DNA of 64,000 nt from Euglena gracilis (lineage: Eukaryota). The notes beneath the pieces were generated by a model. It saw nothing but the letters and a program-made list of their open reading frames with translations, made no database searches and was not told the DNA's origin. Both the position numbers and the translations under genes were made by a program. Positions 790-30,430 of the stretch are shown in pieces. Every line of letters begins with the position of its first letter. Position 1 is the first letter of the stretch. The DNA lies in the NCBI GenBank assembly GCA_039621445.1, contig CP154954.1:29583411-29647410 (forward strand). The letters run 5' to 3'.

Positions 790-922
790 GATAATGAGAA
801 ACCTTCTGTGACGAAAAAATTTTTCGGCCGGGGTCCCAAGACCCAAGAATCTTGTCATTCTTGGGTACCCCCCCAAGAAGCAAGATCTTGGGGGGGTAAC
901 CCAAGACCCAAGACTCATCCTT
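1..922 (-). mobile_element. hAT-superfamily DNA transposon, 5' part; inserted into the RT of element A and running off the window edge
   Basis: Element A RT ORF stops abruptly at ~920. Subterminal CCCAAGA/TCTTGGG repeats at 835-915 precede a transposase gene. Confidence 0.8.
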
Positions 923-2924: not shown

Positions 2925-4189
2925 GCTTTCGCGGACACAGGCAATGCCACCGTCCGGGGCGCCACGTAGTGGTTCCGCCTAGAATGTTTTGGATGTCTTG
3001 GATTCGGTGAGGATGCACTCGTGCCAGGGCGGTAGGTCCGGGGGGCGACGTAGTGGTCGCTGTCCGTCAGGTCCTTGCCCTTGGCTGAGGTAGGCACTGG
3101 CAGTTTGGCCGCTCCGAGATATGCAGACGTTCGGCCTGGATGGCCCTGGCCCGAGAATTGCGCCTCCCCCTGGTTTGCCGGCTCCACCACGTCCATCCGA
3201 GAAGATAATTGAAATCAGCGACCTCAAAAACCCCTTACTTGGCCGCTTTTGGTGGCTTGGAGAAAACACCAATGCCCGTATGTTGCAGTGAGCGAGGAGC
3301 TTGAGGCTCCGCTCTCCACCAGAACGGTCTAGACGAATGCCGGCTCTGGCGGCTCCACTGCGGCGATTTGAGTAGATATTCGGACTTGGCGACCTCAAAA
3401 ACCCCCCTGAGGGGCCTCTCAGTGGGCTCTGCCGGGTCATTGTCGCGGAGAAATGGTAATGGCCGCGACCAGGCGGCAGTGGTTCCCCTAGCCCAGGGGA
3501 AGGGAAAATTCGGCATGGCCGTTTCTGGCCCCCCGCCGTGTTTCGGCGGGATGACGGCCGCTTTTTCGGGTCCGCTGCCCTCGAAAAACCCCCTTGCGGG
3601 CATCTGAGCGGGCGTCGCTGGGTGGCCATCATGAAGGAACTGTGATGGACGCGGAAGGGAGGCAGTGGCTCCTGTGTGCCACGGGACCTGAAAACTCGGT
3701 CTGGCTGTTTCCGGCCTGCCGCCGCCTGTCGGCGGGCAGGGGGCCGTATTTTCGGTATCGCCGCCATCGGTAACCCCCATCTGGGGCACCTCAGTGGCCT
3801 GCGCCTGGGACCCAAGGGGAAGAGTTTGTTGCTACCGCCGTTAGCTTGGAGTCTTTGCCGTCCGCCATGGAACTGTGAAGTTCGGCCCCGCCGTTTCCGG
3901 CCCCCTTCCGCTACACTCCAAAGGGGCAAGCGTTTGTGGCAGGAGCGGGGGTGGCAGAACTGTGCAATCTGTGGGTAGCTGGGTCCACCACTGTTGCTCC
4001 CAATGACTTCGGTGCAATCTCCAGGGTCCTCTGTTTGGGGTATCCGCAGGAGTTTCATTGGAATTTTAGGGCAGAATATCTCACCAATCTTTTTAATGTT
4101 TTGGCTGGAATCTCTATGGTCCACTGCTGTGGTTTTCTCCTGGGGTTGAGCTGGTGGGAAAACCTTCTGCAGCAATTTTGGAAAGCACA

Positions 4190-4560
4190 AAGCCAAACCC
4201 AAGATTTGGGAGCAAAATGTCTGCAAATTGGGTCCACGAATCTGGATCGAGATGTCGATGTGCTGCTGGGGCTGGCTCTCCCAGGGCTTGGGTCCACCAA
4301 TCTTGACCGAGATGTCGATGTGCTTGTGGTGTGGCTTCTCCTTGGGCTTGCTCTCCCAGAGCTTGGGTCCACCAATCTTGTTCAAGATGTCGATGTGTTG
4401 CTGCTGCTGCTGCTTCTCCTGGGGCTGGCTCTCCCAGGGCTTGGGCCACCAATCTTGTTCAAGAAGTCGATGTGCTGCTGCTGTTGCTGCCTCTCCTGGG
4501 GCTGGGTCTCCCAGGGCTTGGGCCACCAATGTCGATGTAAATGTGCTGCTGCTGGGTGGC
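4190..4560 (-). repeat. ~60-bp imperfect tandem repeats in the 5' region of element A
   Basis: Recurring CCACCAATCTTG...GATGTCGATGTG...CTCCCAGGGCTTGGG; translates as repeated GGPKPWESQP...HIDI units. Confidence 0.8.
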
Positions 4561-4786
4561 TGAATCTCACCCTTCTTCTCCCGGGGCTGAATCTCCCAGG
4601 GCATTACAGATGTCGCTGTGGACTCCGGGGGTTGTGGGAATCCCCCGGGTCGGCGAGGCTGTCGTTGCAAATGAGCCAGTAGGGTGAACTCAGAGTAGAT
4701 TAACAATGAACTTCGAGAGGTCGAACGCCTGGAACTTCAAAATATACCCCACGTGGGGCTTTCACTTGTCCGACATTATATGCGAA

Positions 4787-5819: not shown

Positions 5820-7159
5820 ATGTCGGGGGCCGCGGCCCCAGAAGACCCGCCAGCCGTGCTGGAAGTGCCGCTGGACAACGTCATCCTCAACAAAAAATTG
5901 ACTTCGGTGCTGGACCAAGTGGGCCTGGTGGCCCAGAATATGATGCTGTTGGCGAGCAAGGTGGAGGCCCTGGCCGACAAGGTGGAGGAAGGTCGACCAG
6001 GAAAAAGAAAAAGACAAGCTGAAGAAGATTATGAAGACTACCTCTGACAACAGCACCAGAACAAGTACATCCCCCGCCACCTCCGCCACCAGCAACAGCA
6101 GCAGCCTGAGCAGCCCTTACCTCTCCCCTGGCCCCCACACACACACCCACACCAACACTCACACATCACACATTTAAATCCCCAGGGGATGCCTGGAAGG
6201 ACTGCCCAGCACCAACAGCAGCAGCAACAGCTGCAGCCCCAAATGGGGCCACAAATGGGCAGCCAAATGGGGACCCAAATGGGCATGACCATCCCCACCA
6301 TGAGCGCCAGTGCCACAGCCAACAACCACCAAGGGCTGCAGCTCCCCATCGACCTGTTGCGACAGCTGCTGGTGCAAATCATGTTGCTGCTGTTTGGAAA
6401 TGTTACACAACAAAATGTCAGCAACATGGCCAATGCTGTCTCACAATTAATGGCCCCCCCATCTGGAACATTTGGACCCTGTCCTCCACATGTGCTCCCC
6501 CTTGTGCCCTGCCCTGTGCCCTGCCCAAGCCAAAGGGGGGAAGGGGGGGGACAGGAGGTCACAAAAAAGACAAGACCCCCCCCAAATGCAAATGCAAAAA
6601 AATGCACCACAACATTCTGGAAAAATTAAGGACCATGTCCACACTGGAAAAACAGCAAGTGGCACAGATTGTGGAGGAAAGAAAAACAGCACAGATGTCT
6701 GCACAGACCAGGGCTGGCAAAACCCAAACCACAGCAAAGCTGCCCACAAACTCGGTGACAGCCGCAGACGACTGGTCTGTGCTGTCCTCGACGGATGCCT
6801 CCATCTGGGGGGAGTGGACTGGCCAAAGAAAAAAATACAAAAAAGCCCTCGTGGACCAGTGGTTGGAAAACATCCATATCACTGTGGCCCCCGTTCCCCC
6901 TCACCCCCCCGGACGCACCTGGTCTGACCTGGCGGACGATGAGGTCCAGCTCCTCCTGTATGCACCTTGTGCTCCGCTCCAGGGCGGGGGGAAGTCCGGT
7001 GGCAGTTCCTCGCCAAATCATGGGGGACAGGACACACCCTGGGCACCCACAGGGCCGGCCCCCCCCCTCTGGCCGGCAGACCTGTGGCTCAATCACCACA
7101 CGAACAAAAGCCACAGGGACATTCTCTGCTGTGGGGATATCGAAGAAAACCCGGGCCCT
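5820..7159 (+). pseudogene. ORF1-like N-terminal segment of element B (coiled-coil-like and Q-rich), ending at the first 2A
   Basis: ORF pieces 5820-6047, 6189-6629 and 6602 onward, broken by stops/frameshifts; ends HRDILCCGDIEENPGP. Confidence 0.6.
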
Positions 7160-7789
7160 TGTTCCGGGGGGCCAGCCGGCCAAACAGCCCGTCTGACACC
7201 GGACGAGATATGGGACGAACTATACTGGAATGGCCAGCGCTGGAGGTGGCAACGTCTGCGCACCACGGCCACAGCGGGCCCATCCTCTGAGGCCCCGGCC
7301 CACGTCGGCCCAGGGACCGAATTTGCGAAATGCCGCCTGTGCTTTCAGCACATCAACCTGTCGTCTCTCTGGGACATGCAGTCTCATCACTGCCAGGCAG
7401 GTAGACCGTTCGGCAACATCTTTTCGCTCACCACAGTCCGGGAAGACAATTGGCGCTGGGACCTACACCACCTAGAATCCCTACCAAATGGCGAGTGGTG
7501 GCTGGTCCGCTGCAAGGTCTGTGGATGGTCGACAGAAACCCCTTACCCGGCACCCCTACTGAGCCACATGCAACTTTGTACACCACCGTCTCTCTCTGAC
7601 TTGGAAAGCGACTTGGAAGGGGACGATGAACACGACGAAGATGATAACAAGCATGCGGTCTACTCACGCGGCCACAGGAAGGTCAACGTCCCTGGATCCA
7701 ACAGCCCGCTACCTGGCTCGCCTCACTCATCCACCGGCAGGGGCGAGGACATCCTCACCGCTGGAGACGTCGAATGCAATCCGGGCCCC
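7160..7789 (+). CDS. 2A-flanked module with two Cys/His zinc-finger-like motifs and an acidic tract
   Basis: CRLC...HHC and CKVC...HMQLC, then DLESDLEGDDEHDEDD, then GRGEDILTAGDVECNPGP. Confidence 0.7.
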
Positions 7790-7834
7790 AGTAGTGCCAC
7801 ACGACCCCCTGAGGACCTCCCACGCCGAGTACCA

Positions 7835-9449
7835 CCGGGGGCCGACAATTACCGCGGGTGGGTAATTCCCGCTCGGGCTTAAACGCGGCCATTTTAGGCG
7901 CGCTGTATTACCGCGCGCTCCACGGCCGAAGCGCGCTAATAAACCCCGCGTTAATAAACCCCGCGCTATTACCCAAATCGCGGAACACTCACCATTCCTT
8001 ATTTTTTTTTATTCAGGACGTTTGCTCCCCAGCCCGCAGGCACGCAATGTGCCCTGGTAAAGAAGGGGTTTTTTTGGCACATCACATATCTGAAAAGTGA
8101 AACCTGGAGGTGTTCAAGTTTCAAGGACTGGTATCAAGTGTTTATCCAGTTTATGTATTCTTTCAACCTCAAGTAACAAGTCAGGACAAAGAACACACGC
8201 CAAGCGGAAGAAAAGACTTCAAGATTTACTGCTGCGCAGAACTTCAACGTGCTGACTTACATACTATACTTATTACTATACTTACTATACTTATTACGTG
8301 CTGACTTACATACTGACTTATTGGAACAATGATAATTGAGGACCTGAGCATGTCCCTGCTAAACTGCTCCATGTTGTTGGGAATCGCCGTTTTGTATGTT
8401 CTCTGATTCCTGTTGCTGTGCCTAGAAACTGGAAGGTTTTTTGTTTGTCTGTCCATTTTGTTGCACCGTAATGGTAATCTGGGCATCAGAATTTGCTTTA
8501 CAGTTTTTGATTCACATTCACATCTTGGGACCAGTTTTGGGGGTGACTTTGGGGTGACAGCATCATTTCATTTCTCTGTGGCATGTCTTCACAATGCTTT
8601 TTTCAAAATACTGTTCCAACAAATCCTTTCAACGTTTTCTTCTGGATATTTCTGTGACATCATTCAAGCAACATCTGACACATTTTGCACATCAGTTTTC
8701 ACTGAGGGTGCATGCATCTCTTTTCCCAAAATGAAACTTTTTCTGAAAACTTTTTCTGGGGAGATGACTCTTTCTTTCAAGAAAAGTTTGTAATTTTTGT
8801 CCTTTGAGCTCCCCCCGCATTGCAACTATTTTTTCTTGGAAGCGAATTGCACACCCCCCGTTTTTAAAAAAAGCACACTGCCAGAGGTTTCTTTCAATAT
8901 TCTAGTTGTGACGTTTCGTTTCAAACGTTTTTTTTTTGTTCCTCAGGCACTCCACAAAAACCAGTCAGTCACTTATTTTCGGAAAACCAGCCAGTCACCC
9001 CCCCGGGGGGGGGGAGTCGGCCACTCAAAAAAAAAGGCCACTCAAAAAAATAGGCCACTTTCCAGACATTCTCGGCCAAAAAACTTTTCCCTTTTACACC
9101 GCTGGCTAACCCCCCGAACAAAAACCAGTACGTAACTCTGAAACCACCGCCCCCCCAGGGGTTCAGCCAGTACTTAGGCAATCACTGTCGCCCAGGAGTT
9201 GAGCCACCGTCAACCTTTTTTTTGAGGTTTCTAAGTAAGCAATGCGCCGCGGGCAGGGTTTGCCGTTCCGAACACTAATCGGCGGTCACGCCCTGGGACT
9301 TCGGGCCTCACTAAACTCCTCTTTCCGTGCTTCCCAGAAGGCGAGGGGGGGTTGTTTGTCCCCGCGGGCCCCTGGGCCGGCGCGTTGTAAAACCCCGCGG
9401 TAATTGTCGTCGCGGCAATTACCCACCCGCGGTAATTGTCGGACCCCGG
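7835..9449. mobile_element. Non-autonomous TIR DNA transposon with a 2-bp CA target-site duplication (possibly CACTA/Mirage-like)
   Basis: TIR CCGGGG(G/T)CCGACAATTACCGCGGGTGGGTAATT at both ends. Removing it restores EDLPRRVPREDFM in frame, matching the empty site in paralog D (~26180). Confidence 0.9.
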
Positions 9450-9451
9450 CA

Positions 9452-10396
9452 CGCGAGGATTTTATGCTGGACCCCCCGTGGTTCCAGGTCGTAGTCCGGG
9501 CCCTTTCGCCGGACAACTCGCCCACCATCGACGCCTTCGCCGACCAGAACAACACACAGCTAGCCCACTTCTGGTCACAAAGGGAGGACGCCTTCCTCCA
9601 TAACTGGTTCCTGCCGAATCCAATATGGTGCAACCCGCCTTTTTCCTTGCTCCCTCGTGTTCTTCAGCACGTCCTCCGCCATGGGGGCAACATCATCCTC
9701 CTCGCACCGGACTGGTCCAATGTGCTGGCCGGCCTTCGGAGCATCTCCTCGGGCAGCTTGACCCTGCCACGGTGCCCTATCTATCGGGCCAGGGGGACGG
9801 CACTGCTCCCGACCCCAGGCTGGGCAACTGTGGCCCTGTGGATACACCACCCATGCCACCCTCCACTGAGCAGTGCCCCGGGGCCAGTGAGGCCCGTCTC
9901 CCGCGCAAGCTACTCGGAACGTCCGCCTCGTGCCTCTCACACACCGTATCCGCTCGTGCCCCTCCTCTCCCTGGGACAGCACCGCCTCATCAGAAAGCGA
10001 ACCGCCTGTCACGGCGGGGAAACATTCCACCTGCGGGACTACGCGGGCCGGACTTTCCTGATCTACCACGACGCCCTCTGGGACATCCGGGGCACCTCAC
10101 CCCACTGGTGCCAACGCTGTGGACTGTGGCAATGGCCATGGGACTGTCCCACGCTACTTCCCCAACACTTCGCCGCACCCAAAACACCACTTCTCCGGCC
10201 GGCCTTCCGGCTGAACCCCACCCCACGCTCCCTCCTTGGCGCTGTACAAGCACCACCGGCTGAGACAGCGCCGGTCCACCCGGCACCAAAAAACGACCGG
10301 CGTAGTCCGTCACTGGGCGGTCCCTCCACCTTGGGGACCAACCGTGGACGGGGTAGCCTCCTCACCTGTGGGGATGTGGAGGAGAACCCTGGGCCG
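9452..10396 (+). CDS. Dam-like (phage/DIRS-type) DNA N6-adenine methyltransferase module of element B, ending in a T2A-like peptide
   Basis: EDFML...TIDAFADQNN...DAFLHNW...WCNPPFSLLPRVL...ILLAPDW, with the NPPF catalytic motif. Confidence 0.85.
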
Positions 10397-11478
10397 GCCA
10401 AGCGCCCAGCACCGCCATCCCCCCGCGGCGCGCCAACCGCAACTGAGGCCAGGGAACATGACAACCTTTTCCTGGACCTCGCTCACCCGGAACGTGACGC
10501 GGCGATGGTCATCGACAGTGCCGGCCAGGAGTCCAATCTCCGAGGACAGCCTGCGCACAGTCTGGTGGTTGGCGCTCCCCCCTGCGACATAACCCACCTT
10601 CTCCAACAGAGAATTCCGACCCTCCTCCACCTGCCCTCGGCCTGCCAACAACCTGTCTTTGACACCATGGCAGACGCCATCACGGCATACGTATGAGCAC
10701 CCACGGACGCGGCATTGCATTGCCGTGCTCTCCTTCCCAAGCTTGTCCTCCGCCCGGCATCAACAACCAAACCACCGCCACCAGCAGAACTGGAGTCCAT
10801 CCTACTGCGACGCGCCAGACTATTCCGCGAAGGGGATTACGCTACCCTGCTGACAGAAGCCCAAAAGGACACCCAGTCACGACACTCCATTGTGGAGACC
10901 AGGGCAGAAAAACGTTCCAGGACACAGCCCACCGCCCTCAGTGAAGCAATGACGAGACGCGTACGCACCCTCACCGCAGAGGGGGCTTCTGCAAAGGCTG
11001 TTCAGATTCTGCTGTCCGAGGGTGCGCACCAACCGGACGACCCAGAGGTCTGGGGCGCCCTGGAAAAGCTACACCCCGCCGGCAGGAATGTTGACACCAA
11101 CCGCCTGCCGCGTCACGTCCGCCCTTTCCCCGAGAACCACACCCCTGAGTGGGAGGACCGAGTGAAGGAAGCCATCCGTCGCTTCCCACGGGGATCGGCG
11201 CCGGGGCCATCTGGGTTGCGACCAAGCCACCTCCAAGACTGCCTGCGGAGACCAGGTCGAGGAGCAAGGCTGATCACTGCCCTCGCACTCCTGACCCAAG
11301 TCTGGGTGGACGGCCAGCTACCGCCCCACCACGCCGCGGCCTGGTGCTGTGCGAACCTAACGCCGCTCCGCAAAAAGGATAACGGGATACGCCCGGTGGC
11401 GGTTGGGGAAACTATACGTCGCTTGGTGGGGAAAGCCCTGCTCCAGACACCAAACGCCAGATCCGAGGTCGCAACCCT
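10397..11478 (+). pseudogene. N-terminal part of the element B RT protein
   Basis: SAPGPSGLRPSHL and RPVAVGETIRRLVGK. Stop at 10694 (CGA in paralog D), frameshift near 10725, similarity to D ends at 11478. Confidence 0.85.
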
Positions 11479-15024: not shown

Positions 15025-18000
15025 TCAAAAGTATGGGGAATGCGTACCACCGCTATTGCAATCAAGTAGTTGCTCAGGGCACTGTCCCCATGCCAGTTGT
15101 CTTGCCAACTCGCGCATCAAAGCCATTCCAAGTCCCTGCCATGCACTGGCCTCCACACCCCGCCTCTCCCAGCCGTTATGTTGGCTTGTTTGGAGGCGGA
15201 TGCATGTGGAGACGAATCCTTGGCCTGCTTCACTCATGCCACCGTAGCAGTCCATCACCAGTGGGATAAATGTCCAGCCTCGTCGCTTGCAAGGGTCCCC
15301 ATACTTGGCAATTTTGTCTTCTTCCTGTCGAGTGTGCCAATTGTCCACCTGAGCTGGAGGTGACCTGGAGGGTGCTAGTGGGTGTCTGACTGTGACATCA
15401 ATGGCTGCGGGTCCATTTGCGTCAAATCGAGTGATGAAAACATCGCCCGGTCGAGTTCCGTCCTCAGCTTTTTCTTCTCGACGTGCAGGGAAGCCAGCTC
15501 GCTGTGCCAGGTTCAGGACAAAGCTTTGCACTGCCCCGTGCCGCCGAACGAGGTTGTTACGGTGGCAGCAGACGAGGTGGTGGCCGGCTGTGTCAAGTGG
15601 GCTCATGCATCGTGGACATGCGGGAGAGTGGCTCTCTTCTGTTTTTACCACAGGAGCGCCAAGCGTCCATTGGAGGAGGGCAACAAATTCTTTCGTGGGA
15701 ACAAGGGTTTTTGTGCCAGCAGAGGGGACTGCACACGTCCAGGCCATGGCATGAGGCCTTGTTTGGCAGGAAAATCGGATGGCATCGGATCCGGACAGGG
15801 AGTTTTGCAGTTTCTTTTGGCGCAGCATTGAGCAGACGTTCCCCCAGTGTTTCTGTGACACCATTTCTCGTGGTAGTTGGGTGGCACGGGTGGAGTCATC
15901 TGTTAAGGCCTGCAGGGGTTGACCTTCAACACCAACGATCTTCAGCAATGTCAGTGCGGAGTCAAAATCTGGTGGTTTCATATTGCGGATTACGAAGTCC
16001 GGAAGTCCCAACAACGTTTCAGCCCTTTGGAGGAAGTCCAGTTGGGCTGACCACCGTGCAGCGAGTCGGCATTCCTGCGGATCCTTAATTCCTAGTCCCC
16101 CCAAACGGGGTGGCAAGGTGGCGTGACCACTGGTTGTCATCAACTGGTCCTGTCATGATGCAACTCAGCGTGTTTCGTAAACAGTGGCTCAGCAATAAGC
16201 ATTGGTCCCCAGCAAGCGGCAGTGGTGTTCCCCTCAGTAGGTCATTGACGCGACATGCATCCAAACATTGACGCAGAAGGGTGTACTGGACATGGGCACT
16301 TGGCACAAGCTGTAGGAGATTGCATGCCTTCAGAACCATTTCGACTCGTGGAGCCCAAACAGTGGAGGCGAACGCCCCCCCTGCTGGGTGGCAGACTGGT
16401 AGTCCAAGGACCTTGAGGCCACTTGCTTCAGAATATTCCTGCACCGGAATTTGTTGGAGCGGGGTTGTGTTGGTTGGGAGGCTGGACCATTCCATTCCAA
16501 AGGCAGGTCCCCACAATCGACACTTGGATATATTCAGGGAAACCCCAATGAGGGGTCCTTCTCGCAGAATGTATCGGACTGCTGTTTCCAGTTGTGCTGG
16601 GGTACCCACGAGATGGGCATCATCCAAGTACCATGCTTGCCATCCGACCAGCTCACCCACTTTTTCAACAAGATTTTGAACTGCAATTGCGAACGCCGCA
16701 GGACCACATGGGTCACCTTGTTGCACACCACTTTTGCTGCGAAAGGAGGTTGACCCACAGTACAAAGTGGAATGCTCACTGTAGCAGCTCTCCATCCATG
16801 CTGTCATCTCAGGGCAACGTTCTCGAACAGCGTCCAGCATACCCTCACGGCGCAGGCAGTTGAAGGCATTTGCAAAGTCCAATTGCAACACACCCCAATC
16901 CTGAGCACCTGTGTGATGGAGACAGCCGACAAGCTGCTGAAGTCCGATGGCAACAATGGAACAGGGATCAGAATGGCCAACACCAAATTGTCCAGGCAGA
17001 CTGTTGCGAACTGCTGTTCTCACCACTTCCTGTCTCATGATCACTTTTCCTACCAGCCGACGTAGGCATTCGCCCGCTGCTATGGGCCTGGTTCCCTCTT
17101 CTTCTGGAGCAGGTGGGCATTGGTTGCCGAAATCATCGGTGTTTTTGGCTGCTTTCACTTTTCGCAAAGCTGTCAGTCTGGCTGCTGCCATGATTGCCGC
17201 AGGTCCTTTTGGCAAACCCTTGTCAATGGTGCGATAACAGAAGGTCGTGAGTTCGTCCAAAAGGTCATCTGCGTGGCAACCTGCATCATGCCCCATCAAA
17301 CACCGAAGGTGGTCGGGCCTCAAGCCAGAGGGGCCTGGGGAAGATTCTGGGCCAAAGCTGAAGACTGCCTTTCGCACTATTGTCCGGCGTTGTTGCATGT
17401 CTTCCTCAGAAGTGGCAGCTGGTAGCGAACGTCTCAAGGTCGTTGGGCCAAGTCCAGGAGGCGGTTCATGTGGATGCAATTGCCGGAGGCGTTCACGTAC
17501 CAAGGGGTTGTCGGGATCTTGAACACCATCGGAAGTCAACAGGTTGCACGCTTTGGATACAGCACCCCTGCCGACCAGTCGTTCTAGTCTGGAGACAAAA
17601 TCTCTTTTGTTACTTCTTCCTCTTTCGAGGCAGCCAGTCTAGTACGTGGTCTCTTTCGTGCGTTAGTTGCTTCCACTGGAGGAGAAGTGTCCTTCCAACT
17701 CTCAAGCGTCGGGCGGTTTAGGTATTGTCGTGAACGAGCCTGCAGGATGCGGCCAAGCCGTGCCCAGTGACCGCGCCCACCACGGCCAAAGGGTGCCAGC
17801 ACTGCCTTTGGGAAGCACCAAAGGGCGTGCATGGCTTCCCAGGTGCTTTGTTCGTTCAGGCGGCGCAAGAGTGTGCAATAGACCTCGGCCACTGCTTGGA
17901 TGGCCCCGCGAGGGATAAGGCTGATTGACCCACGGCGATCGTGGGCAATTTCTTCCCAAGTTGGATGAAGGTCAGGGCATGGTCCTGAGAGGGGGTGGGA

Positions 18001-20809: not shown

Positions 20810-23800
20810 GGTGGAGGCAAAACCTTCATCATCTTGATGACCAGCCAAACTTCAACCCAAAGTTAAAGATTACCCCCTGTGAAATTGCCAGAGTTTGATG
20901 GTGCAAACTGGCCAGAGTTTTTGAAAGATTTTGGATGGTTGAGGAGGTTAACTGATGTTGTTGCACTTGGAAATGTCCAGAAAAAGGATTGGCTGTTGGA
21001 ATGTTGCACCCCCAAGGTGAATAAACTGGTTGAAAAAGTGATGGAAGGGAGTGATGATTTTGCAAAAGTGCTGTTGGAAATTGCAAAATTGTTCCCAACA
21101 CTGGAAAATGACATGACTTTGAGATCTGCCATTGAGAAATTGCCAGCACTTTCACAGAACCCTGAACCCCAAGACATCAAAAAACCTTTCATTGAGTTGC
21201 ACAACTTGATGGCCAGGTTGAGCCCCCAGGTCATGAGTGAACAGGAAAAGTTTCTGGTTTTGCTGAGGAAATTACACCCCAGAATGTATGCAGACATAAG
21301 GGCAGACAGATTTTACAAACATCGTTCTAAGACATTCACAGATTTGAGGAAAACAATTTTGGAAAAAAGTTCTGAAGATTTGTTGGAGAGGGATTTGCTT
21401 AAAAAAGAAAATCTCAGACCCCTGATTGAAAGACCCCTGACCAATCAGAAAAAGTTGGTGAAAGTGTCCCAGAATCTGGAACGTGGAAAATTTGGTGGAA
21501 AAGGAAAAGGCAAAGGAAAAGGCAAAGGCAAGGGTGAAAGAAAATTTGATGACACCCCAGCCCCACGATTTGGAGCAACAATTTTCTGTCGATTTTGTCA
21601 CAAAAAGGGGCATTATGAAGACAGATGTTGGTCAAAAGGAAAGTTTGAGAAAAAGAAGGCGGCAGCCCAGAAGGGGGCAGGCAAAGGGACCCCTTCGGTT
21701 CAACCCCAGGGAGTGCAAACCCAGGTTACCTCCCTGGGTGAGAACCCCAAAAAGAGAAAGGCTGATGCTTTGCAATTGCTCCAGATTGTGTGTAAAACTT
21801 ACCTTTTGCCAGTGAAGGTTTATGGAAAGGATGTTCAAGCCATTTTGGTCACCGGGGCCACCATCACTGCAGTTTCTAAGAAATGTGTTCCTGAGAATAA
21901 AGTTCAGCGGAGTGCTGCGGTACCCCTGCAGATCGGCAACGGGGAGTATATTTTTTGAGAGATTGTGTGAGATGTGTTTGCAGTTTGGGTCCAAGATTTT
22001 GAAACTGTAAGCTGTTGTGGTGGATACATGTGCCTTTGAGGCTTTCTTAGGGACTGACTTCACAGAAAGTGAGTTTTTTGGAGGGTTGCTGACCATACCC
22101 CCCAGAATCATCATCGAAGTTGAGGAGTTTTTACTTCAGAGCCATGATGGGGACCACACCGTCAAAAGAATTTTCAGACTTTTCAAGACAGAAAGCTACA
22201 CTTTGGTCAAGCCAGTGAAGTCAAAAGCTTTGGAAGGATTGAAGATTTCTGAGGGTCAGATTTGCATTGATCTTTTTGCAAACCACCTGAACCACACACA
22301 GTCTTTGTACATGACTAAAGGGAATTCAGCCTACAGGCATTCGTGGGAAAAATTGTTGTGTGACATTGGTGCTTCCAAGTTTCTGTGGGCAAACCCCCCC
22401 TTTCAGACAACTAAGCAAAGCGGTGACTAAGTTGTGCCTTGAAACAAAAATGGTCCTGGTACACCCAGACTGGGTGGACCAGTACTGGTCCCCCCTGCTG
22501 GAAAGGGTAACGGTGGCCAGGGTGAAAATTTCGAGTGGGATTCCCTTATTTGTGGGTGACAGGTGCAAAAAAGGTGCTGCCCTGCCCCTGCGGAACACTT
22601 TTGTGAGTGTGGTGGACAGAGTGCAATTCAAAGTGGATTTTGAGTTTTGGACCCCACAATTGTCAGTTGGCTCAGGAAAGTTTCAAGAAATTGGAGTTTG
22701 TATGAACTGACAGGTGAGATCAGGAAGCACCCCATAGTGGAGGATGAAATTCAAGTGGACTTCCCAGAGGTTCCCGACGTCCCCCAGCAGCAGCAGGCAC
22801 ACCAACCTGCCAATCCATCTGCAGACCAGCAAGTTTTTGAAAGTCCAAGTTTTCCTTTGGAGAGTGTTCCCCCCAAGGAATCAGAAGAAAAGGTGAAAGA
22901 TTCGTTGGACAACGTGGTGGTATTTGAACCGATGAGTGAGCATGAAAACATCAATTTTTTGGCTGAATTGACAAAGGACATTGAAAGTGAGCTGAGTCTT
23001 TTTCAGCAGGTGAGAAAAGATGTGGAGGTGATGTTTTTCCATCTGTCCCAGCCTGTGGAAGGTGTTCAGTTTGCAAAAACTGTGAAGAATCTCAAGGCAA
23101 CAATCAAGATGGATGAACTCAAAAGCATTTCCCAAGTTTTACATGAAAAAGATTTGGACTTTGGAGGCCCAGAAAAAGGCTGATGAAAAAGGCAGCAAAT
23201 TGTTTACTGAGAATCTGAGTGGAGAATTTGAGAGGGAAGTTGAGAAAGTCAGAGACCACCCCAGGCTGTATGAGCTTTTGGTGAAACTTTCTGATGTTTT
23301 TGGACCATTGCCCACAATTTCTGAGTCTTCCCCCCTGCCTGTTTTGATGGACATTGAGCTAAAACCTGAATGGGAAGGGAAACACCTAAGTCAAAAGTGT
23401 TGGCCCATGCCCCAGGAGGATGAAAAAGAATTTGACCTTCCTTGTGAAGAATTGCTAAGTCAGGGTTGATTGAGCAATTCCCCGTTGGTGAAATCCCCCA
23501 GGTGTGCAGCCCCACATTTTTGGTAGACAAAAAAGGGTCAAGTACGAGAAGGATGGTCATTCATTATTGAAAATTGAATTCCAGAAGCAAAGCACATGCA
23601 GGTTTTTTGCCAAACATGGAAATTCTGTTTGAAAGTTTGGCCAAGTGTCGGTTCAAAAGTACCCTGGAAATGAGGAGTGGGTATTGGCAAATCCCAATCA
23701 CAAAAAGAGCAGCAAATTTGTCTGCATTTTGCATTCCTTCAGGGAGGTGTTTTTGTCCGAAAAGGATGATGTTCGGGTTGATGAATGCCCCAGGGATCTT

Positions 23801-25226: not shown

Positions 25227-28200
25227 ACAGCACAGACGACTGGTCTGTGCTGTCCTCGAGGGACGCCTCCATCTGGGGGGAATGGACCGGCCAAAGAAAA
25301 ATCTACAAAAAAGCGCTCGTGGATCAGTGGTTGGAAAACATCCATATCACTGCGGCCCCCCTTCCCCCTCACCCCCCCGGACGCACCTGGTCTGACCTGG
25401 CGGACGATGAGGTCCAGCTCCTCCTGTACGTACCTTGTGCTCTACCCCAGGGACGGGGTGAAATCTGGTGGCTGCTCCTCTGGCAAAGGCAAAACTGCCA
25501 TAGGGACATCCTCCGCTGTGGGTATGTCGAAGAAAACCTGGGCCCTTCTTCCAGGGGGCCAGCAGGCCAAACAGCCCCCCATATGGGATGAACTGTACTG
25601 GAATGGCCAGCGCTGGAGGTGGCAACGTCTGCGCACCCCGGCCACAGCAGGCCGCCCAGGTCGGCCCAGGGACCGAATTTGCGAAATGCCGCCTGTCCTT
25701 CCAGCACATCAACCTGTCGTCCGGGACGTGCAGTATCATCACTGCCAGGCAGGTAGGCTGTTCGGCAACATCTTTTCGCTCACCACAGTCCGGGAAGATC
25801 ATTGGCGCTGGGATCTACAACACCTGGAATCCCTTCCAAATGAGGAGTGGTGGCTAGTCCGCTGCAAGGTCTGTGGGTGGTCGACTGAACCCCCTTACCC
25901 GGCACCCCTACTGTGCCACCTGCAAATTTGTACACCACCGTCTCTCTCTGACTTGGAAAGCGACTTGGAAGGGGACGATGAACACGACGGAGATGATAAG
26001 CATGCTGACTACTCACACGGACACAGGAAGGTCAACGTCCCTGAATCCAGTAGCCTAGCACCTTCTTCGCCTCATTCATCCACCGGCAGAGGCGATGACA
26101 TCCTCACCGCCGGAGACGTCGAAAGCAATCCGGGCCTAAGAAGCGCCAGTGGACCCCCTGAGGACCTCTCACGCCGAGGGCCACGCGAGGATTTTATGCT
26201 GGACCCCCCGTGGTTCCAGGTGGTGGGCCCTTTCGCCCCACAACCCGCCCACCATCGACGCCTTCGCCGACCAGAACAACACACAGCTAGCCCACTTCTG
26301 GTCACACAGGGAGGACGCCTTCCTCAAGAACTGGAACCTGCCGAACCCCATATGGTGCAACCCGCCTTTTTCCTTGCTCCCTCGTGTTCGGGCAACCTCA
26401 TCCTCCTCGCACCGGACTGGTCCATTGTGCTGGCTGCCCTATGGAGCATCTCCTCGGGCAGCATGACCCTGCCACGGTGCCCTATCTACCGAGCCAGGGG
26501 GACGGCACTGCTCCCGGCCCCGGTCTGGGCAACTGTGGCCCTGCGGATTCACCACCCAGGCCACCATCCACTGAGCAGTGCCCCGGGGCCAGTGAGGCCC
26601 GTCCCCCACACAAGCAACTCGCAACGTCCGCCACGCGTCTCGTACACACCATATCCGCTCGTGCCCCTCCTCTCCCTGAGGCAGCACCGCCTCATCAGAA
26701 AGCGAACAGCCTTACACGGCGGCGAAACATTCCACCTGGGGGACTTTGCGTACCGGACTTTCCTGATCTACCACGACGCCCTCTAGGACATCCAGGGCAC
26801 CTCCCCTCACTGGTGCCAACGCTGTGGACTGTGGCAATGGCCATGGGACTGTCCCACGCTACTCCTCCAACACTTCGCCGCACCCAAAACACCACTTCTC
26901 CGGCCGGCCTTCCGGCTGAACCCCACCCCACGCTCCCTCCTTGGCGCTGTACAAGCCCCACCGGCTGAGACAGCGCCGGCTCTTCCGTCACCAAAAAACG
27001 ACCGTTGTAGTTGTTCGCTAGGCGGTGCCTCACCTTGGGGACTAACTGCGGACGGGGTAGCCTCCTCACCTGTGGGGATGTGGAGGAGAACCCTGTGCCA
27101 GCCAAGCGCCCGGCACCGCCATCCCCCCGCGGCGCGCCAACCGAAACTGAGGCCAGAGAACATGACAACCTTTTCCTGGACCTCGCTCACCCGGAATGTG
27201 ACGCGGCGATGGTTATCGACGGCGCCGGCCAGGAATCCAATCTCCGAGGACAGCCTGCGCACAGCCTGGTGGTTGGCGCTCCCCCCTGCGACATAACCCA
27301 CCTCCTCCAACAGAGAATTCCGACCCTCATCCACCTGCCCTCGGCCTGCCAACAACCTGTCTTTGACACCATGGCAGACGCCATCACGGCATATGTACGA
27401 GCACCCACGGACGCGGCATTGTTCGCCGTGCTCTCCTTCCCCAAGCTTGTCCTCCGCCCTGCGTCAACAACCAAACCACCGCCACCAGCAGAACTGGAGT
27501 CCATCCTGCTGCGACGCGCCAGGGCTATTCCGCGAAGGGGATTACGCTACCCTGCTCACAGAGGCCCAAAAGGACACCCAGACACGACACTCCATTGTGG
27601 ACTCCAGAACACAGCCCACCGCCCTCAGTGAAGCAATGACGAGACGCGTACGCACCCTCACCGCAGAGGGGGCTTCTGCAAAAGCTGTTCAGATTCTGCT
27701 GTCCGAGGGTGCGCACCAACCGGACGACCCAGAGGTCTGGGGCGCCCTGGAAAAGCTACACCCTGTCGGCAGAAATGTTGACACCAACCGCCTGCCGCGT
27801 CACGTCCGCCCTTTCCCCGAGAACCACACCCCTGACTGGGAGGACCGAGTGAAGGAAGCCATCCGTCGCTTCCCACAGGGATCGGCGCCGGGGCCATCTG
27901 GGTTGCGACCAAGCCAGAGACCAGGTCGAGGAGCAAGGCTGATCACTGCCCTCGCACTCCTGACTCAAGTCTGGGTGGACGGCCAGCTACCGCCCCACCA
28001 CGCCGCGGCCTGGTGCTGTGCGAACCTAACGCCGCTCCGCAAAAAGGATAATGGGGTACGTCCGGTGGCGGTTGGGGAAACCATTCGTCGTTTGGTGGGG
28101 AAAGCCCTGCTCCAGACACCAAACGCCAGATCTGAGGTGGCAACCCTCGCCCCTACCCAAGTTGGGGTTGGGGTAGGAAACGCGGCTGAGGCCGTCGTTG

Positions 28201-30430
28201 GGTATGCAACACCTGGTCATTCAGCTAGGGGACACATCGCCCTGGGTATCTCTCCAGGTGGACTACTCCAATGCGTTCAACACGGTGGACCGAGGGGCGA
28301 TCCTGACGGAGGCTGAAACGCGCACCCCCAGCTTGTTCAACTTTCTGAGATTCGGGTACAGTGGGCACGTTCCCTTGTTCTGTGGTGGTCGCTCGATCCT
28401 GTCACAGAGAGGCACCCACCAGGGCTGCCCATTGGGCCCCATAGGGTTCGCTCTCGCGCTGCAGCCTCTGCTGGAACAGATCACCAAAGATGGCCAGCTG
28501 CTGTGGAACAGCTGCTACCTGGACGACGGCTTGCTGGTCGGGACCCCAGACCGGATTGAGCACTGCATTTGTTCCTTGATGCAAGAGTTCCATCGAATAG
28601 GGCTCGGCCTCAACCTGCAGAAGTGCGTCATGTGGGGCCCGGGAGCCAGGAGTACGCTGAGTTGTGAGAGGATGCAAGTGGTCCCTTCTACCCCAGGGGA
28701 AGGCATCACCGTCCTGGGCATCCCAGTTGACCAACCAGCGTCCACAGACACCACACAGATTGCGTGGGAGGTTGCCACCGCCAAAATCGAGAAGGCCGCA
28801 TCCACCATCACGTCCGTCACCGAGGCTCAGGTAGCGCACCATTTGTTTCGGAACTGTCTGGATGGTTGCAAGGTTAACCACCTGCTGCGGGCATCCCACT
28901 CATATGGCAGCCAGGACCAGGTGAGAAGCTGCTCTGAGGTGATTCTGAACTCCTTCGAAGACATACTGGGCACGGCACTGAACACACAACAACGGGCCCA
29001 GGCTTCCCTGCCCTTGTCAAGTGGCAGCTGCGGCCTCCGCATCCCAACCTTCACACAGCCTGCGGCCAGGATTTCTTGCCTTGCAGACTTCTACTCCGAC
29101 GGGGCACGACGGGTTGGTGTTCCCGGCTACGCAACCCTCCCTCATTACGCCTGCCTTGGACGACCTCAGGGGCAGGCTAGGGGCCAATCACGCCACGGTC
29201 ACCACCTTCCTCAGCAACCCTCAACGAATCGCGTCTGCGGATTCAGAACCTCGGAAACAGAAGTGGTGGAATCACGAGCTCGGAAAGAAGACGATGGATG
29301 ACCTGGTGGACCAGGCTCGGCCCCGGGACCAGAACCGCCTCCTCGAACAGGCCACAGGTTTCGGGCATGGTTGGATGGCAGCAACCCCCTCAAACAACTC
29401 CCACACCATTTTCTCCAGCGAAGAGTACACCTTGGGGTTGAAGTGGTGGCTGGGTCTCCTGGTGCTGAACGACGTCAGCCAACCATGCACGGGATGCAAC
29501 CAGCCCCTGGACAAGGAAGGTGACCACCTCCTTTGCTGTTGCAGGAATAACTTCGCCACCCGCCACAACGCTGTTCAGGACGCACTGTTCCAAACCTTGT
29601 CCAACGCGGGTACAGAAGGAGGTTTCCCTGCCAACGGCCCCAGATAGCCACCTCCGCCCGGCCGACCTCCTCCTAGACTGCTGGTCTGACGGGAAGCCGA
29701 AAGCGCTGGATGTCACCGTCCGCCACGGATGGCAGGCGACTGAACACACTGCCACCCGCGAACGGTGGAGATCCTTCCTGAAGAGAAGGGAGGATGCCAA
29801 AAAGCAGAAGTACAACATCCCATGCCAGCAAGCAGGCTGGGGCTTCACGCCCTTCTCCCTGGGAACGTGGGGGGCATGGGGCCCGAGACAGCCAAAACCC
29901 TGAGCCGGGTGGCGAAACGCGCCTCGTCCTGGAAACAGGGGGCGGAACGAGAATTAAAGGAGGCGGAGATTTACCAGAACGTCGCAATCGCCCTACTACG
30001 CGAAGTCTTCCATCTCCTGCAACCCAAGCACATTCTCCGATAAAAAAAAATAAAAAACCCAACAACACACACACACACACACATACACAACCACGACCCA
30101 CCGCCACTCTCCCCGTCAAGCCACGTACCGCTGCCCTGCCCCCGACCACTCTACACTCCAGCACTGCCGTTCCCCTCAGCTCCCCGCTCCCCCACGCCCC
30201 TCTGCCCCTGCGCAACGTATTGAAGGTGGGCCTAGCCCATTTTCCACTCGCCGTCCTATACCCCAGCTGTAAATTATCATAACCGCCTGCGGACCTTCAA
30301 ATCCAGTAGGCTGTGCCACTGGTCGGTGGATTCGGTTCGCCCCACCACCGTACTTCTTCCAGATGGCTGAGGTAAATAGGTCAGCAAATAGTTCGCACAT
30401 GCCCCCCATGCTGGAGGACGCACACCACAA
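25227..30430 (+). mobile_element. Element D: 5'-truncated, degenerate paralog of element B, including RT, RLE and 3' UTR (3' boundary approximate)
   Basis: Collinear with 6760-11478; decayed 2As at 25499, 26085 and 27050; CYLDDG; CTGC...HLLCC, RHNAV, RPADL, LDVTV, KKQKY; stop at 30043. Confidence 0.9.

What the first reader, a model, noticed from the sequence alone, without database searches (positions are those of the whole stretch)
9452..9850. Dam-like N6-adenine methyltransferase in a non-LTR retrotransposon
Seen: DAFA..NN, DAF...W, WCNPPF and LLAPDW motifs, intact here and decayed in D (~26185-26560). Known: this MTase type occurs in phages and DIRS tyrosine-recombinase retroelements. Inference: released by the flanking 2As, it could deposit 6mA on new insertions or chromatin to favour expression or evade silencing.
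Basis: partly seen in the sequence, partly recalled or inferred. Interest (0 to 1): 0.8.

Follow-up and report, generated by a model that had tools for sequence, protein, structure and literature searches.

The report
Adenine methyltransferase module inside a LINE retrotransposon
A small phage-type adenine methyltransferase domain is a built-in part, bracketed by 2A ribosome-skipping signals, of an R2-like jumping gene, a host class not described for this module in the papers I could search.

Summary
Window 9464-9850 encodes an intact ~130-residue Dam-type N6-adenine methyltransferase (DAM) domain:
- Pfam PF05869: 30.9 bits, above the 28.1 cut-off.
- tblastn finds phage Dam genes in 210 phage records.
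- The AlphaFold model has pLDDT above 90 over the domain. Its best predicted-structure matches are phage Dam proteins; its best solved match is PCIF1.

The domain is in frame in the polyprotein of a non-LTR retrotransposon with an R2-like reverse transcriptase and a C-terminal CCHC plus restriction-like endonuclease. Canonical 2A motifs lie on both sides.

Both window copies are dead:
- Copy A carries a 1.6-kb TIR transposon between the upstream 2A and DAM, a private TGA stop, and a truncation at 11478.
- Copy D has two frameshifting deletions in DAM and all three 2As mutated.

Uninterrupted forms exist. Three public proteins show DAM-2A-RT-endonuclease in one frame, and contigs of three DNA runs skip the TIR insertion.

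A different DAM lineage sits in a Ty3/Gypsy element in the same window. DAM in DIRS and LTR elements is known (2026 preprint). I found no report of DAM in a LINE, so this is a new variant of a known kind. Activity and substrate remain untested.

The parts
6110..7834 (+). Copy A, upstream part of the polyprotein. The frame is open. It holds 2A-1 and 2A-2 and a Cys/His-rich segment between them (7160-7765).
   Evidence: ORF 6110..7882. 6758-7829 aligns with copy D 25227-26178 at 86-90% identity. Translation of 7160-7765.
7136..7159 (+). 2A-1 motif, GDIEENPGP type
   Evidence: Six-frame motif scan.
7766..7789 (+). 2A-2 motif, GDVECNPGP. In the uninterrupted form it lies about 20 residues upstream of the DAM start.
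   Evidence: Relatives have a 2A ending 4-27 residues before the domain in 18 proteins.
7836..9449 (.). Foreign insertion that interrupts copy A: a non-coding TIR element with 38-nt terminal inverted repeats and a 3-bp duplication (CAC). It is not part of the retrotransposon.
   Evidence: Inverted repeat I1, 95% complementary. Alignment with copy D, which lacks it. Contigs of 3 DNA runs join 7832 to 9450.
9464..9850 (+). DAM domain of copy A (Dam/PF05869-type N6-adenine methyltransferase), intact. D23-x-F25-A26...N30, D42-A-F, and W55-x-N57-P-P-F60, P82-x-W84.
   Evidence: (pLDDT above 90 for residues 1-130).
9851..10372 (+). C-terminal extension of the DAM protein. It holds a conserved beta-rich module ending in LWD..P.P..C..C...W.W.C (10079-10147). 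No known fold was found.
   Evidence: Alignment A4. Motif present in 12 of 150 relatives. Model pLDDT 79-87 over the core. Best structural Z is 2.8.
10373..10396 (+). 2A-3 motif, GDVEENPGP, separating the DAM protein from the RT protein
   Evidence: The same position holds in P0005, P0007 and P0004.
10397..11478 (+). Copy A, N-terminal part of the RT-endonuclease protein up to the first RT motifs. There is a private in-frame TGA at 10694-10696, and the copy breaks off at 11478.
   Evidence: All contigs laid over 10694 read C where copy A has T. Loose ends behind 11478 continue as the RT sequence.
25227..30095 (+). Copy D, 5'-truncated and nested in the integrase of a Ty3/Gypsy element. Contents: decayed DAM 26196-26560; three mutated 2As (25520-25546, 26112-26138, 27074-27100); RT 27297-29301; CCHC plus restriction-like endonuclease 28982-29903; A-rich and (CA)n tail about 30040-30095.
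   Evidence: (RVT_1 E=5e-12).
22218..22620 (+). A second, separate DAM domain, between protease and RT of a Ty3/Gypsy LTR element (gag-PR 20867-21958, RT from 23571, RNase H 24490-, integrase 24892-25226). One frameshift lies in a C-run at the NPPF motif.
   Evidence: Pfam Dam E=0.0034; 55.2 bits against the family HMM; separate clade.

Best explanation
Window 9464-9850 encodes a minimal (~130 aa) phage-Dam-type, class-I SAM-dependent N6-adenine methyltransferase domain. It is an integral, in-frame module of a non-LTR (LINE) retrotransposon of the restriction-like-endonuclease, R2-like kind. The element's single long frame reads: N-terminal protein(s) - 2A - Cys/His-rich protein - 2A - DAM plus a conserved Cys module - 2A - RT - CCHC - endonuclease.

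Shown here: the domain, its conservation, the element type, the frame continuity, and the recurrence of this architecture.

Inferred: ribosome skipping at the 2A motifs would release a separate DAM protein of about 330 residues. That protein would use the conserved D-x-F-A...N and NPPF pocket to methylate adenine N6 in the element's own nucleic acids. Most likely the substrate is the cDNA or RNA:DNA intermediate, or the new insertion, made by target-primed reverse transcription.

My odds: real DAM module of a LINE 0.95; catalytically active adenine methyltransferase about 0.6; DNA or cDNA as the substrate about 0.4. Both window copies are dead relics of a high-copy family.
For: Domain.
- Pfam Dam above its cut-off and PHROG_111.
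- tblastn hits in 210 phage records, 15 of them listed; the listed hits are 32-37.5% identical over residues 8-85 (12 of 15 over 22-82) with E from 2e-4 to 7e-2, and 11 of the 15 are annotated as Dam or DNA methyltransferase.
- AlphaFold model with pLDDT above 90 over residues 1-130.
- Foldseek against predicted viral structures: 18 matches at E<=1e-3, and of the 10 best rows the 7 that carry a name are phage N6-adenine or plain methyltransferases, from E=4.6e-7.
- Solved structures: PCIF1 Z=10.0, T4 Dam and EcoDam Z=8.2.

Conservation across 121 related domains: D23 117, F25 119, N30 106, W48 121, N57 120, P58 117, P59 119, F60 109, P82 119, W84 113.

In PCIF1 the Asn of NPPF is required for catalysis, and that enzyme also acts on ssDNA in vitro (passages).

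Element type.
- RVT_1 hit in copy D.
- The RT-endonuclease profile hits R2 chains at 6.1e-14 and 1.1e-13, then LINE-1 ORF2p at about 1e-5. A second stretch aligns the CCHC, RH and PD...D-x-T motifs of R2.
- Copy D is 5'-truncated relative to copy A, ends in an A-rich/(CA)n tail, and has no flanking direct repeats.

Integral rather than nested.
- The frame is the same from DAM through 2A-3 into the RT protein.
- Copies A and D share the order in different flanks.
- P0005, P0013 and P0027 carry DAM, 2A, RT, CCHC and endonuclease in one protein.
- Contigs of 3 DNA runs join 7832 to 9450 without the TIR insertion.
- In the DAM tree, copy A lies in a 42-row clade (SH-aLRT 96) with all four LINE-context rows. 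25 of its 41 database rows carry a strict 2A. The Gypsy DAM of the same window lies in another clade.

2A.
- Three canonical motifs in copy A.
- 41 of 150 relatives carry D[VI]ExNPGP, against 0 in shuffles.
- In 10 proteins the domain is flanked on both sides.
Against: - The Pfam match covers only 43 residues, positions 30-72 of a 169-position model.
- phmmer of the domain against solved structures found nothing. The profile's best hit was PCIF1 at a non-significant E=0.4.
- The best solved structural match is an RNA cap adenosine methyltransferase, not a DNA enzyme.
- The 2026 preprint reports no rise in 6mA when DIRS, LTR and adintovirus DAMs were expressed in dam- E. coli. No LINE DAM was tested there.
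- Iyer et al. placed DIRS1 MTase domains in the PCIF1 clade and judged them likely inactive.
- Ka/Ks between copies A and D is 0.50 for DAM (121 codons; 10 synonymous and 16 non-synonymous differences), against 0.16 for the region after 2A-3. That is weak constraint at best, and both copies are dead, so it is not decisive.
- Neither window copy can express the protein.
- 2A activity, SAM binding and substrate were not testable here.
Confidence: 0.55

Rival explanations
1. The module is an RNA adenine methyltransferase (PCIF1-like). It modifies the element's own transcript, for example cap-adjacent or internal adenosines, to stabilise it, mark it as self or aid packaging. It does not write 6mA on DNA.
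For: PCIF1/CAPAM is the best solved match in three searches: profile E=0.4 with aligned FA..N, D.F, NPPF and vPeW motifs; Foldseek top 5 rows, E from 9e-4; VIA Z=10.0, rmsd 3.0, 122 residues, 18% identity, against 8.2-8.5 for the next group. Iyer et al. place the DIRS1 MTase in the PCIF1 clade. Related DAMs gave no DNA 6mA in E. coli. A LINE protein acts in an RNP with its own RNA (established knowledge).
Against: Among predicted viral structures, phage DNA Dam proteins match better (E=4.6e-7) than giant-virus PCIF1-like proteins (E=3.7e-4). Pfam reports Dam and no PCIF1 family at E<=1. The WW domain and the helical cap-binding domain of PCIF1 are absent, since the domain is only about 130 residues. 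No PF05869-type Dam may have been solved, which would make PCIF1 the best solved match by default (inference).
Confidence: 0.2
2. The domain is catalytically inert. It serves as a nucleic-acid-binding or protein-binding module, as Iyer et al. proposed for DIRS1: binding template RNA or mimicking PCIF1 at RNA polymerase II.
For: Iyer et al. judged all DIRS1 MTase copies likely inactive (passages). Heterologous expression of related DAMs gave no 6mA. According to the preprint, the eukaryotic DAMs lack the N-terminal catalytic and target-recognition parts of T4/E. coli Dam.
Against: In this clade the catalytic-type residues are nearly invariant over sequences only 24-51% identical to copy A: N57 120 of 121, P58 117, P59 119, D23 117, F25 119. 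That pattern is what an active pocket predicts. Phage Dam proteins of the same small size (130-200 aa) share the fold.
Confidence: 0.2
3. The DAM is not part of the LINE. It is a fragment of a DIRS or DAM-LTR element nested in it, or an assembly chimera.
For: The window is full of nested elements. Copy D itself sits in a Gypsy integrase, and that Gypsy element has its own DAM. The preprint raises nested insertions or assembly artefacts for DAM elements with LINE-like RTs in Euglena gracilis.
Against: Same frame through DAM, 2A and RT. Two copies in different flanks. Three independent public proteins with the whole architecture. Contigs of three runs bridge upstream 2A to DAM. The LINE DAMs form their own clade, apart from the Gypsy DAM of this window.
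Confidence: 0.03

Closest known systems
DAM (methyltransferase) domain of DIRS1-type tyrosine-recombinase retrotransposons (Goodwin and Poulter; cited, original papers not read)
   Same: Same domain family. The more distant hits include RT-RNaseH-DAM proteins (P0135). The D-x-F-A...N and NPP(F/W/Y) motifs are shared.
   Different: The host element here has no tyrosine recombinase, RNase H or DIRS-type repeats. It is an R2-like RT with CCHC and a restriction-like endonuclease. The domain is set off by 2A motifs.
DAM-LTR retrotransposons (Fernandez-Moreno et al., bioRxiv 2026, 10.64898/2026.05.21.726589; abstract, Results parts 1-2, Methods and Discussion read)
   Same: A retrotransposon-borne copy of the same eukaryotic DAM family. 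The window itself holds one such Ty3/Gypsy DAM element at 20867-25226. The proposed role is the same: 6mA on replication intermediates.
   Different: The text I read names DIRS and Ty3/Gypsy classes only, and mentions LINE-like RTs only as a possible artefact in Euglena. Here the host is a bona fide LINE and the DAM lineage is distinct. Figures and supplements were not visible, so a LINE class there cannot be excluded.
SymbioLINE-DNMT of Symbiodiniaceae (de Mendoza et al. 2018, PMC5890265; passages read)
   Same: A LINE that carries a DNA-methyltransferase-type module upstream of its RT. It is the closest analogue in concept.
   Different: That module is a C5-cytosine DNMT in a separate ORF1 of an APE-type (Exo_endo_phos) LINE. 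Here it is an N6-adenine enzyme inside a 2A-punctuated single frame of an endonuclease-at-the-C-terminus LINE.
Small phage Dam methyltransferases (Pfam PF05869; T1-like Klebsiella, Hafnia and Pantoea phages)
   Same: Sequence similarity over motif I to strand 5. The predicted folds are the best matches; for example a 130-residue Serratia phage protein at E=2.6e-4 has a TM-score of 0.72 normalised to its own length. The size is the same.
   Different: The phage enzymes are free-standing DNA modification enzymes. This one is a polyprotein module with a eukaryote-specific C-terminal Cys module.
PCIF1/CAPAM cap-specific mRNA adenosine N6-methyltransferase
   Same: Best solved structural match. It shares the FA..N, D.F, NPPF and PEW motifs.
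   Different: No WW domain and no helical cap-binding domain. Sequence similarity is not significant (E=0.4). It is not a member.
R2 and other restriction-like-endonuclease LINEs; 2A-bearing LINEs such as L1Tc/Ingi (Odon et al. 2013, PMC3708506, listing only)
   Same: RT, CCHC and PD-(D/E)xK-type endonuclease order as in R2. 2A motifs within a LINE frame, as in trypanosome and metazoan LINEs.
   Different: R2 has no methyltransferase. The 2A-bearing LINEs named in the passages I saw are APE-type or Dualen/RandI. The clade of this element within the endonuclease LINEs was not determined.

Membership tests
Pfam PF05869 Dam (small phage-type DNA N6-adenine methyltransferase) | Match to the family HMM above the curated cut-off | tested here: met
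   30.9 bits against a cut-off of 28.1, E=2.6e-7. Only profile positions 30-72 of 169 are covered.
Pfam PF05869 Dam (small phage-type DNA N6-adenine methyltransferase) | Catalytic (D/N)PP(Y/F/W) motif and the upstream D-x-(F/C)-A SAM-loop motif | tested here: met
   NPPF at 9632-9643 and DAFA at 9530-9541. N57 is present in 120 of 121 relatives and D23 in 117 of 121. Assigning these motifs to SAM and adenine binding is recalled knowledge.
Pfam PF05869 Dam (small phage-type DNA N6-adenine methyltransferase) | Class-I methyltransferase fold like that of phage Dam proteins | tested here: met
   Foldseek against BFVD: of the 10 best rows the 7 that carry a name are phage N6-adenine or plain methyltransferases, E from 4.6e-7. 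T4 Dam and EcoDam Z=8.2.
Pfam PF05869 Dam (small phage-type DNA N6-adenine methyltransferase) | SAM-dependent methylation of adenine N6 in DNA | not testable with these tools
   Related DIRS/LTR DAMs gave no 6mA in dam- E. coli (preprint).
Eukaryotic retrotransposon DAM family (DIRS and DAM-LTR) | DAM domain homologous to those of DIRS/LTR elements | tested here: met
   Hits include PR-DAM, RT-RNaseH-DAM and DAM-integrase proteins. They sit in one tree with the window's two DAMs.
Eukaryotic retrotransposon DAM family (DIRS and DAM-LTR) | Host element is a DIRS (tyrosine recombinase) or an LTR element (integrase, LTRs) | tested here: not met
   Copy D and the proteins P0005, P0013 and P0027 show RT followed by CCHC and endonuclease, with no integrase, recombinase or RNase H family. 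No direct repeats flank copy D.
Restriction-like-endonuclease non-LTR retrotransposons (R2-like) | RT closest to non-LTR RTs | tested here: met
   Profile against solved chains: R2 at 6.1e-14 and 1.1e-13, R2Bm 1.5e-6, LINE-1 ORF2p about 1e-5, group II intron and retron RTs at 0.04 or weaker.
Restriction-like-endonuclease non-LTR retrotransposons (R2-like) | C-terminal CCHC motif followed by a PD-(D/E)xK-type endonuclease | tested here: met
   C-x2-C...H...C, RH, and RPxD...D-[VL]-T-[VI] are conserved in A3. They align to the same motifs of R2 chains, though that stretch alone is weak (7.6 bits). The definition of the motifs is recalled.
Restriction-like-endonuclease non-LTR retrotransposons (R2-like) | Hallmarks of target-primed reverse transcription: 5' truncation, simple 3' tail, no LTRs | tested here: met
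   Copy D starts at the position matching 6758 of copy A. It ends in an A-rich/(CA)n tail near 30040-30095.
Restriction-like-endonuclease non-LTR retrotransposons (R2-like) | Assignment to a named clade (R2, R4, NeSL, CRE, HERO, Dualen) and target-site specificity | not tested
   No reference RT set (Repbase) was at hand. Only two insertion sites were seen.
PCIF1/CAPAM | WW domain and helical cap-binding domain beside the methyltransferase domain | tested here: not met
   No such Pfam families at E<=1. The confident fold ends at about residue 130.
2A (StopGo) ribosome-skipping peptides | C-terminal D(V/I)ExNPGP motif in frame within a polyprotein | tested here: met
   Three sites in copy A. 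41 of 150 relatives carry the motif, against 0 in shuffles.
2A (StopGo) ribosome-skipping peptides | Skipping activity during translation | not testable with these tools
   Needs a reporter translation assay.

The most novel reading that the evidence does not exclude
A whole lineage of R2-like LINEs carries its own epigenetic writer. A 2A-released minimal Dam methylates adenines on the target-primed cDNA, the RNA:DNA hybrid or the element RNA, so that new insertions or transcripts carry a mark of active chromatin or of self. On this reading DAM has been captured by a third retrotransposon class besides DIRS and LTR elements. The 'LINE-like RT' DAM elements that the 2026 preprint set aside as possible artefacts would then be real DAM-LINEs.
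Probability: 0.3. Interest if true: 0.8.

Novelty: new variant of a known kind. Interest (0 to 1): 0.6.

Why it matters
Retrotransposon-borne adenine methyltransferases have been known in DIRS elements for two decades. In 2026 they were reported in Ty3/Gypsy elements, with the idea that elements write or attract 6mA to sit in permissive chromatin. A LINE uses a very different replication route: cDNA is made at the chromosomal target. If a LINE keeps the same module, and does so as a separately released protein, the module's benefit is not tied to cytoplasmic cDNA synthesis. That narrows what its substrate can be.

The window also offers natural controls for a methylation map. It holds DAM-bearing LINE copies, two related DAM-less LINEs, and a DAM-bearing Gypsy element side by side.

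Finally, it gives a concrete answer to an anomaly noted in the preprint (DAM elements with LINE-like RTs), if the same kind of element is involved.

Tried and rejected
- phmmer of the domain and of P0005 against solved structures: no hits.
- The search for homologous proteins with residues 1-140: 284 candidates, none at E<=1e-3, so no source names were obtained.
The host organism and genome-wide copy numbers are therefore unknown.
- ESM Atlas: look-alike clusters, mostly unnamed, one with PF05869 on 14% of members. It gave no usable lineage.
- Rfam scan of the window: 0 matches.
- Sequencing runs: no RNA holder listed. One run guessed to be RNA gave a few short low-depth contigs on the element. 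This says nothing about expression.
- Ka/Ks between the two dead copies: too few differences, and post-insertion decay confounds it.
- Counting 2A gains on the DAM tree (21 changes for 39 positives of 121 rows): rejected as uninformative, because many rows are fragments that lack the flanks.
- C-terminal Cys module modelled alone and searched against 48,161 chains: best Z=2.8, so no fold assignment.
- Literature searches for DAM in LINEs or next to 2A found no such report. bioRxiv supplements and all figures could not be seen.
- Chance motif and nested-insertion artefact were both considered and rejected (see rivals).
Full report
1. What is at 9452-9850

The frame 9404-10696 (+) is open. From the ATG at 9464 it reads a ~130-residue domain with these motifs:
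- DAFAD..N, with DAFAD at 9530-9544
- EDAF at 9584-9595
- W-C-NPPF at 9626-9643
- LLAPDW at 9698-9715

The sequence evidence:
- Pfam gives PF05869 'Dam' at E=2.6e-7, 30.9 bits, above the curated 28.1. Only profile positions 30-72 of 169 are covered.
- PHROGs gives phrog_111 'DNA methyltransferase' at 1.2e-8.
- tblastn against 50,697 phage records finds 210 records at E<=0.1, of which 15 were listed. The listed hits have E from 2e-4 to 7e-2 and 32-37.5% identity over residues 8-85 (12 of 15 over 22-82). Eleven of the 15 lie on genes annotated as Dam or DNA methyltransferase, and 4 lie in unannotated records.
- An exhaustive phmmer search of 1.84 billion representatives finds 537 proteins at E<=1e-3, 72 at E<=1e-10 and 5 at E<=1e-30.

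2. Fold

An AlphaFold2 model was built on an alignment of 65 sequences. It has pLDDT above 90 for residues 1-130, a low-confidence linker, and 70-77 for a beta-rich region at 170-235.

- Against predicted viral structures, 18 matches have E<=1e-3. Of the 10 best rows, the 7 that carry a name are phage N6-adenine or plain methyltransferases (from E=4.6e-7). A 130-residue Serratia phage protein at E=2.6e-4 has a TM-score of 0.72 normalised to its own length. Giant-virus PCIF1-like proteins follow at 3.7e-4 and weaker.
- Against solved structures, the five best Foldseek rows are PCIF1/CAPAM (E from 9e-4), followed by KsgA/Erm rRNA adenine methyltransferases.
- VIA-align gives PCIF1 Z=10.0 (rmsd 3.0, 122 residues, 18% identity). 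Next come Mcbe1 8.5, ErmE 8.5, DIMT1 8.3, T4 Dam 8.2 and EcoDam 8.2.
- A profile search of solved chains gives PCIF1 first at a non-significant E=0.4, with FA..N, D.F, NPPF and PEW aligned.

So the domain is a class-I adenine-N6 methyltransferase fold of the small phage-Dam kind. PCIF1 is the nearest relative that has been solved. This agrees with Iyer, Zhang and Aravind (PMC4738411, passages), who group DIRS1 MTase domains with PCIF1 in their M.EcoKI/M.TaqI-like group.

3. Conservation

In 121 related domains aligned here, the counts out of 121 are:
- D23 117, F25 119, A26 110, N30 106
- W48 121, W55 116
- N57 120, P58 117, P59 119
- F60 109, plus 10 W or Y
- P82 119, W84 113

Identity of the 64 other aligned proteins to copy A is only 24-51%. 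Copy A has the commonest residue at 26 of the 29 columns conserved in at least 60% of rows, and a conservative variant at the other three.

Between the two window copies, Ka/Ks is 0.50 for DAM (121 codons), 0.43 for the extension, and 0.16 for the region after 2A-3. I do not lean on this. Both copies are dead and differ at few sites.

4. The element

Self-comparison shows two copies. Copy A is 6758-7829 plus 9450-11478. Copy D is 25227-26178 plus 26182-28147. They are 86-91% identical, and 94.2% over 1964 aligned columns of the second block.

In copy D the upstream frame runs straight into DAM. In copy A a 1.6-kb element with 38-nt terminal inverted repeats (95% complementary) and a 3-bp duplication lies between them.

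Copy D continues into:
- an RT (RVT_1 E=5e-12)
- a CCHC motif
- a PD...D-x-T region
- an A-rich/(CA)n tail near 30040-30095

A profile of this RT-endonuclease region was built from three public proteins and four window frames. Its best hits among solved chains are R2 proteins (6.1e-14, 1.1e-13, 2.4e-7, 1.5e-6), then LINE-1 ORF2p (about 1e-5 to 7e-5), then retron and group II intron RTs at 0.04 or weaker. A second, weak stretch aligns the CCHC/RH/PD...D-x-T motifs of R2.

Copy D is 5'-truncated relative to copy A and has no flanking direct repeats. The host element is therefore a non-LTR retrotransposon of the restriction-like-endonuclease kind. I could not assign its named clade, because no reference set was at hand.

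5. Is DAM integral to the LINE?

Yes, on five lines of evidence.
- DAM, 2A-3 and the N-terminal part of the RT protein are in one frame in copy A.
- The two copies share the order in different surroundings.
- Three public proteins (P0005 at 1294 aa, P0013 at 1273 aa, P0027 at 1805 aa) carry DAM, one or more 2As, RVT_1, CCHC and the endonuclease motifs in a single sequence.
- Contigs of three DNA runs (1, 2 and 1 contigs) join 7832 to 9450. These are copies without the TIR insertion. Loose ends behind 11478 continue as RT sequence.
- In a quick maximum-likelihood tree of 121 DAM domains (132 columns, SH-aLRT only, many forks unresolved), copy A falls in a 42-row clade (support 96). That clade holds all four rows known to be in LINE context. 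The Gypsy-borne DAM of the same window falls in a separate 4-row clade (support 96) with a protease-DAM protein.

The tree is short-column and quick, so only these starred groupings are used.

6. 2A motifs

Copy A has three canonical motifs, at 7136-7159, 7766-7789 and 10373-10396. In relatives:
- 41 of 150 proteins carry D[VI]ExNPGP, against 0 in 20 shuffles. The share is 18 of the best 30 and 1 of the last 30.
- Within the 42-row clade, 25 of 41 database rows carry it. In the 52-row clade with LTR/DIRS contexts, 0 of 52 do.
- One search examined 148 proteins with a domain hit; 84 of them have more than 30 residues upstream and 77 more than 30 downstream. A 2A ends 4-27 residues upstream of the domain in 18 proteins.
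- A 2A begins 6-29 residues downstream in 16 proteins and 114-193 residues downstream in 11, as it does here.
- Both sides are flanked in 10 proteins.

A 2A-bracketed DAM cassette is thus a recurrent design. That the motifs skip is inferred from the motif alone.

7. State of the window copies

Copy A has three defects: the TIR insertion, a TGA at 10694-10696, and truncation at 11478. At 10694, copy D has an Arg codon and every laid contig reads C.

Copy D has a 5-bp and a 22-bp deletion in DAM, six further indels, and all three 2A motifs mutated.

The family is high-copy in the runs laid: 2115 and 19,754 contigs laid at 90% likeness or more in two runs.

8. Mechanism

Shown: domain identity, conserved pocket, element type, architecture.

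Inferred:
- StopGo release of a DAM protein of about 330 residues. It would consist of the DAM domain plus a conserved C-terminal module with LWD..P.P..C..C...W.W.C. No fold match was found for that module (best Z=2.8).
- SAM-dependent methylation of adenine N6.
- The substrate.

For the substrate I favour the cDNA or RNA:DNA intermediate, or the new insertion, for three reasons. The nearest sequence and fold relatives are phage DNA Dam enzymes. The domain has their minimal size. And the 2026 preprint reports more 6mA on DAM-LTR copies than on other LTR copies.

Against this:
- The same preprint found no 6mA gain on expressing DIRS, LTR and adintovirus DAMs in dam- E. coli.
- Iyer et al. judged DIRS1 domains inactive.
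- The nearest solved enzyme is an RNA cap methyltransferase. That enzyme also works on ssDNA in vitro and needs the Asn of NPPF (PMC9178792, passages).

My odds:
- active enzyme about 0.6
- DNA or cDNA substrate about 0.4
- RNA substrate about 0.2
- inert module about 0.2

9. What is known, and novelty

DAM in DIRS elements is long known (cited; the originals were not read). Fernandez-Moreno et al. (bioRxiv, May 2026; I read the abstract, Results parts 1-2, Methods and Discussion, but no figures, no supplements and not Results part 3) describe DAM in Ty3/Gypsy elements. They name LTR and DIRS classes. They mention DAM elements with LINE/L1-like RTs in Euglena gracilis only as possible domain transfer, nested insertion or artefact.

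De Mendoza et al. 2018 describe LINEs with a cytosine DNMT in ORF1.

The 2A surveys I looked at (passages; listing) name APE-type and Dualen/RandI LINEs and deubiquitinase fusions, and no methyltransferase.

Five full-text searches found no report of a Dam-type domain in a LINE or next to 2A.

I therefore file this as a new variant of a known kind: the known retrotransposon DAM family, in a third host class, in a 2A-bracketed cassette. The window itself shows how such elements could be misread, because the DAM-LINE copy D is nested inside a DAM-Gypsy element.

10. Limits

- The host organism is unknown to me, and I did not try to work it out.
- No genome-wide counts, no expression evidence and no methylation data were obtained.
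- The tree is quick and short.
- The clade of the LINE is unassigned.
- The preprint's figures and supplements may already list a LINE class.

Noticed in passing
window 20867-25226 (+): A Ty3/Gypsy LTR-type element (gag with CCHC, protease, RT, RNase H, integrase zinc finger) carries its own DAM domain between protease and RT (about 22218-22620). A 1-base frameshift lies in the C-run of the NPPF codons. Its DAM belongs to a different clade from the LINE DAM.
   Followed up: yes
window 7836-9449: A non-coding element of about 1.6 kb with 38-nt terminal inverted repeats and a 3-bp duplication (CAC) is inserted in copy A. Contigs in three DNA runs lack it at this site. Parts of it are themselves highly repeated in those runs.
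   Followed up: partly
window 918-4736 (-) and 15025-19611 (-): Two further LINEs of the same RT/CCHC/endonuclease kind have no DAM. The first has a canonical 2A (2885-2862) before an RT protein that is 55% identical to copy A's, and a different, repeat-rich upstream frame. The second has a degenerate 2A (GDIQPNPGP, 18258-18247). DAM is thus an accessory module within this LINE group.
   Followed up: partly
window 10079-10147; proteins P0002, P0004, P0005, P0007, P0011 and others: A conserved module downstream of DAM (beta strands, then LWD..P.P..C..C...[H/Q]W.W.C). In some relatives a 2A splits it from DAM. No structural match (best Z=2.8); function unknown.
   Followed up: partly
protein P0002: One relative has two DAM domains in tandem. 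The first has NPPH in place of NPPF.
   Followed up: no
window 7160-7765 (+): The segment between 2A-1 and 2A-2 would be a separate protein of about 200 residues with two C-x2-C...H...C-like motifs. It may be the DNA- or RNA-binding part that R2 carries at its N-terminus.
   Followed up: no
window 33513-33806 (+) and 33222-33674 (-): A third fragment of the LINE's 5' region (92.6% identical to 6246-6540) abuts an integrase-core-like frame on the opposite strand. A chromodomain-like frame lies at 30603-30944 (-). This is probably another nested LTR element.
   Followed up: no
window 54076-55473, 57754-58600, 60572-60826, 59417-60244: A 1.4-kb (TCTCC)n array, (ATGT)n/(ATGTA)n arrays, and a 205/413-bp tandem repeat.
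   Followed up: no
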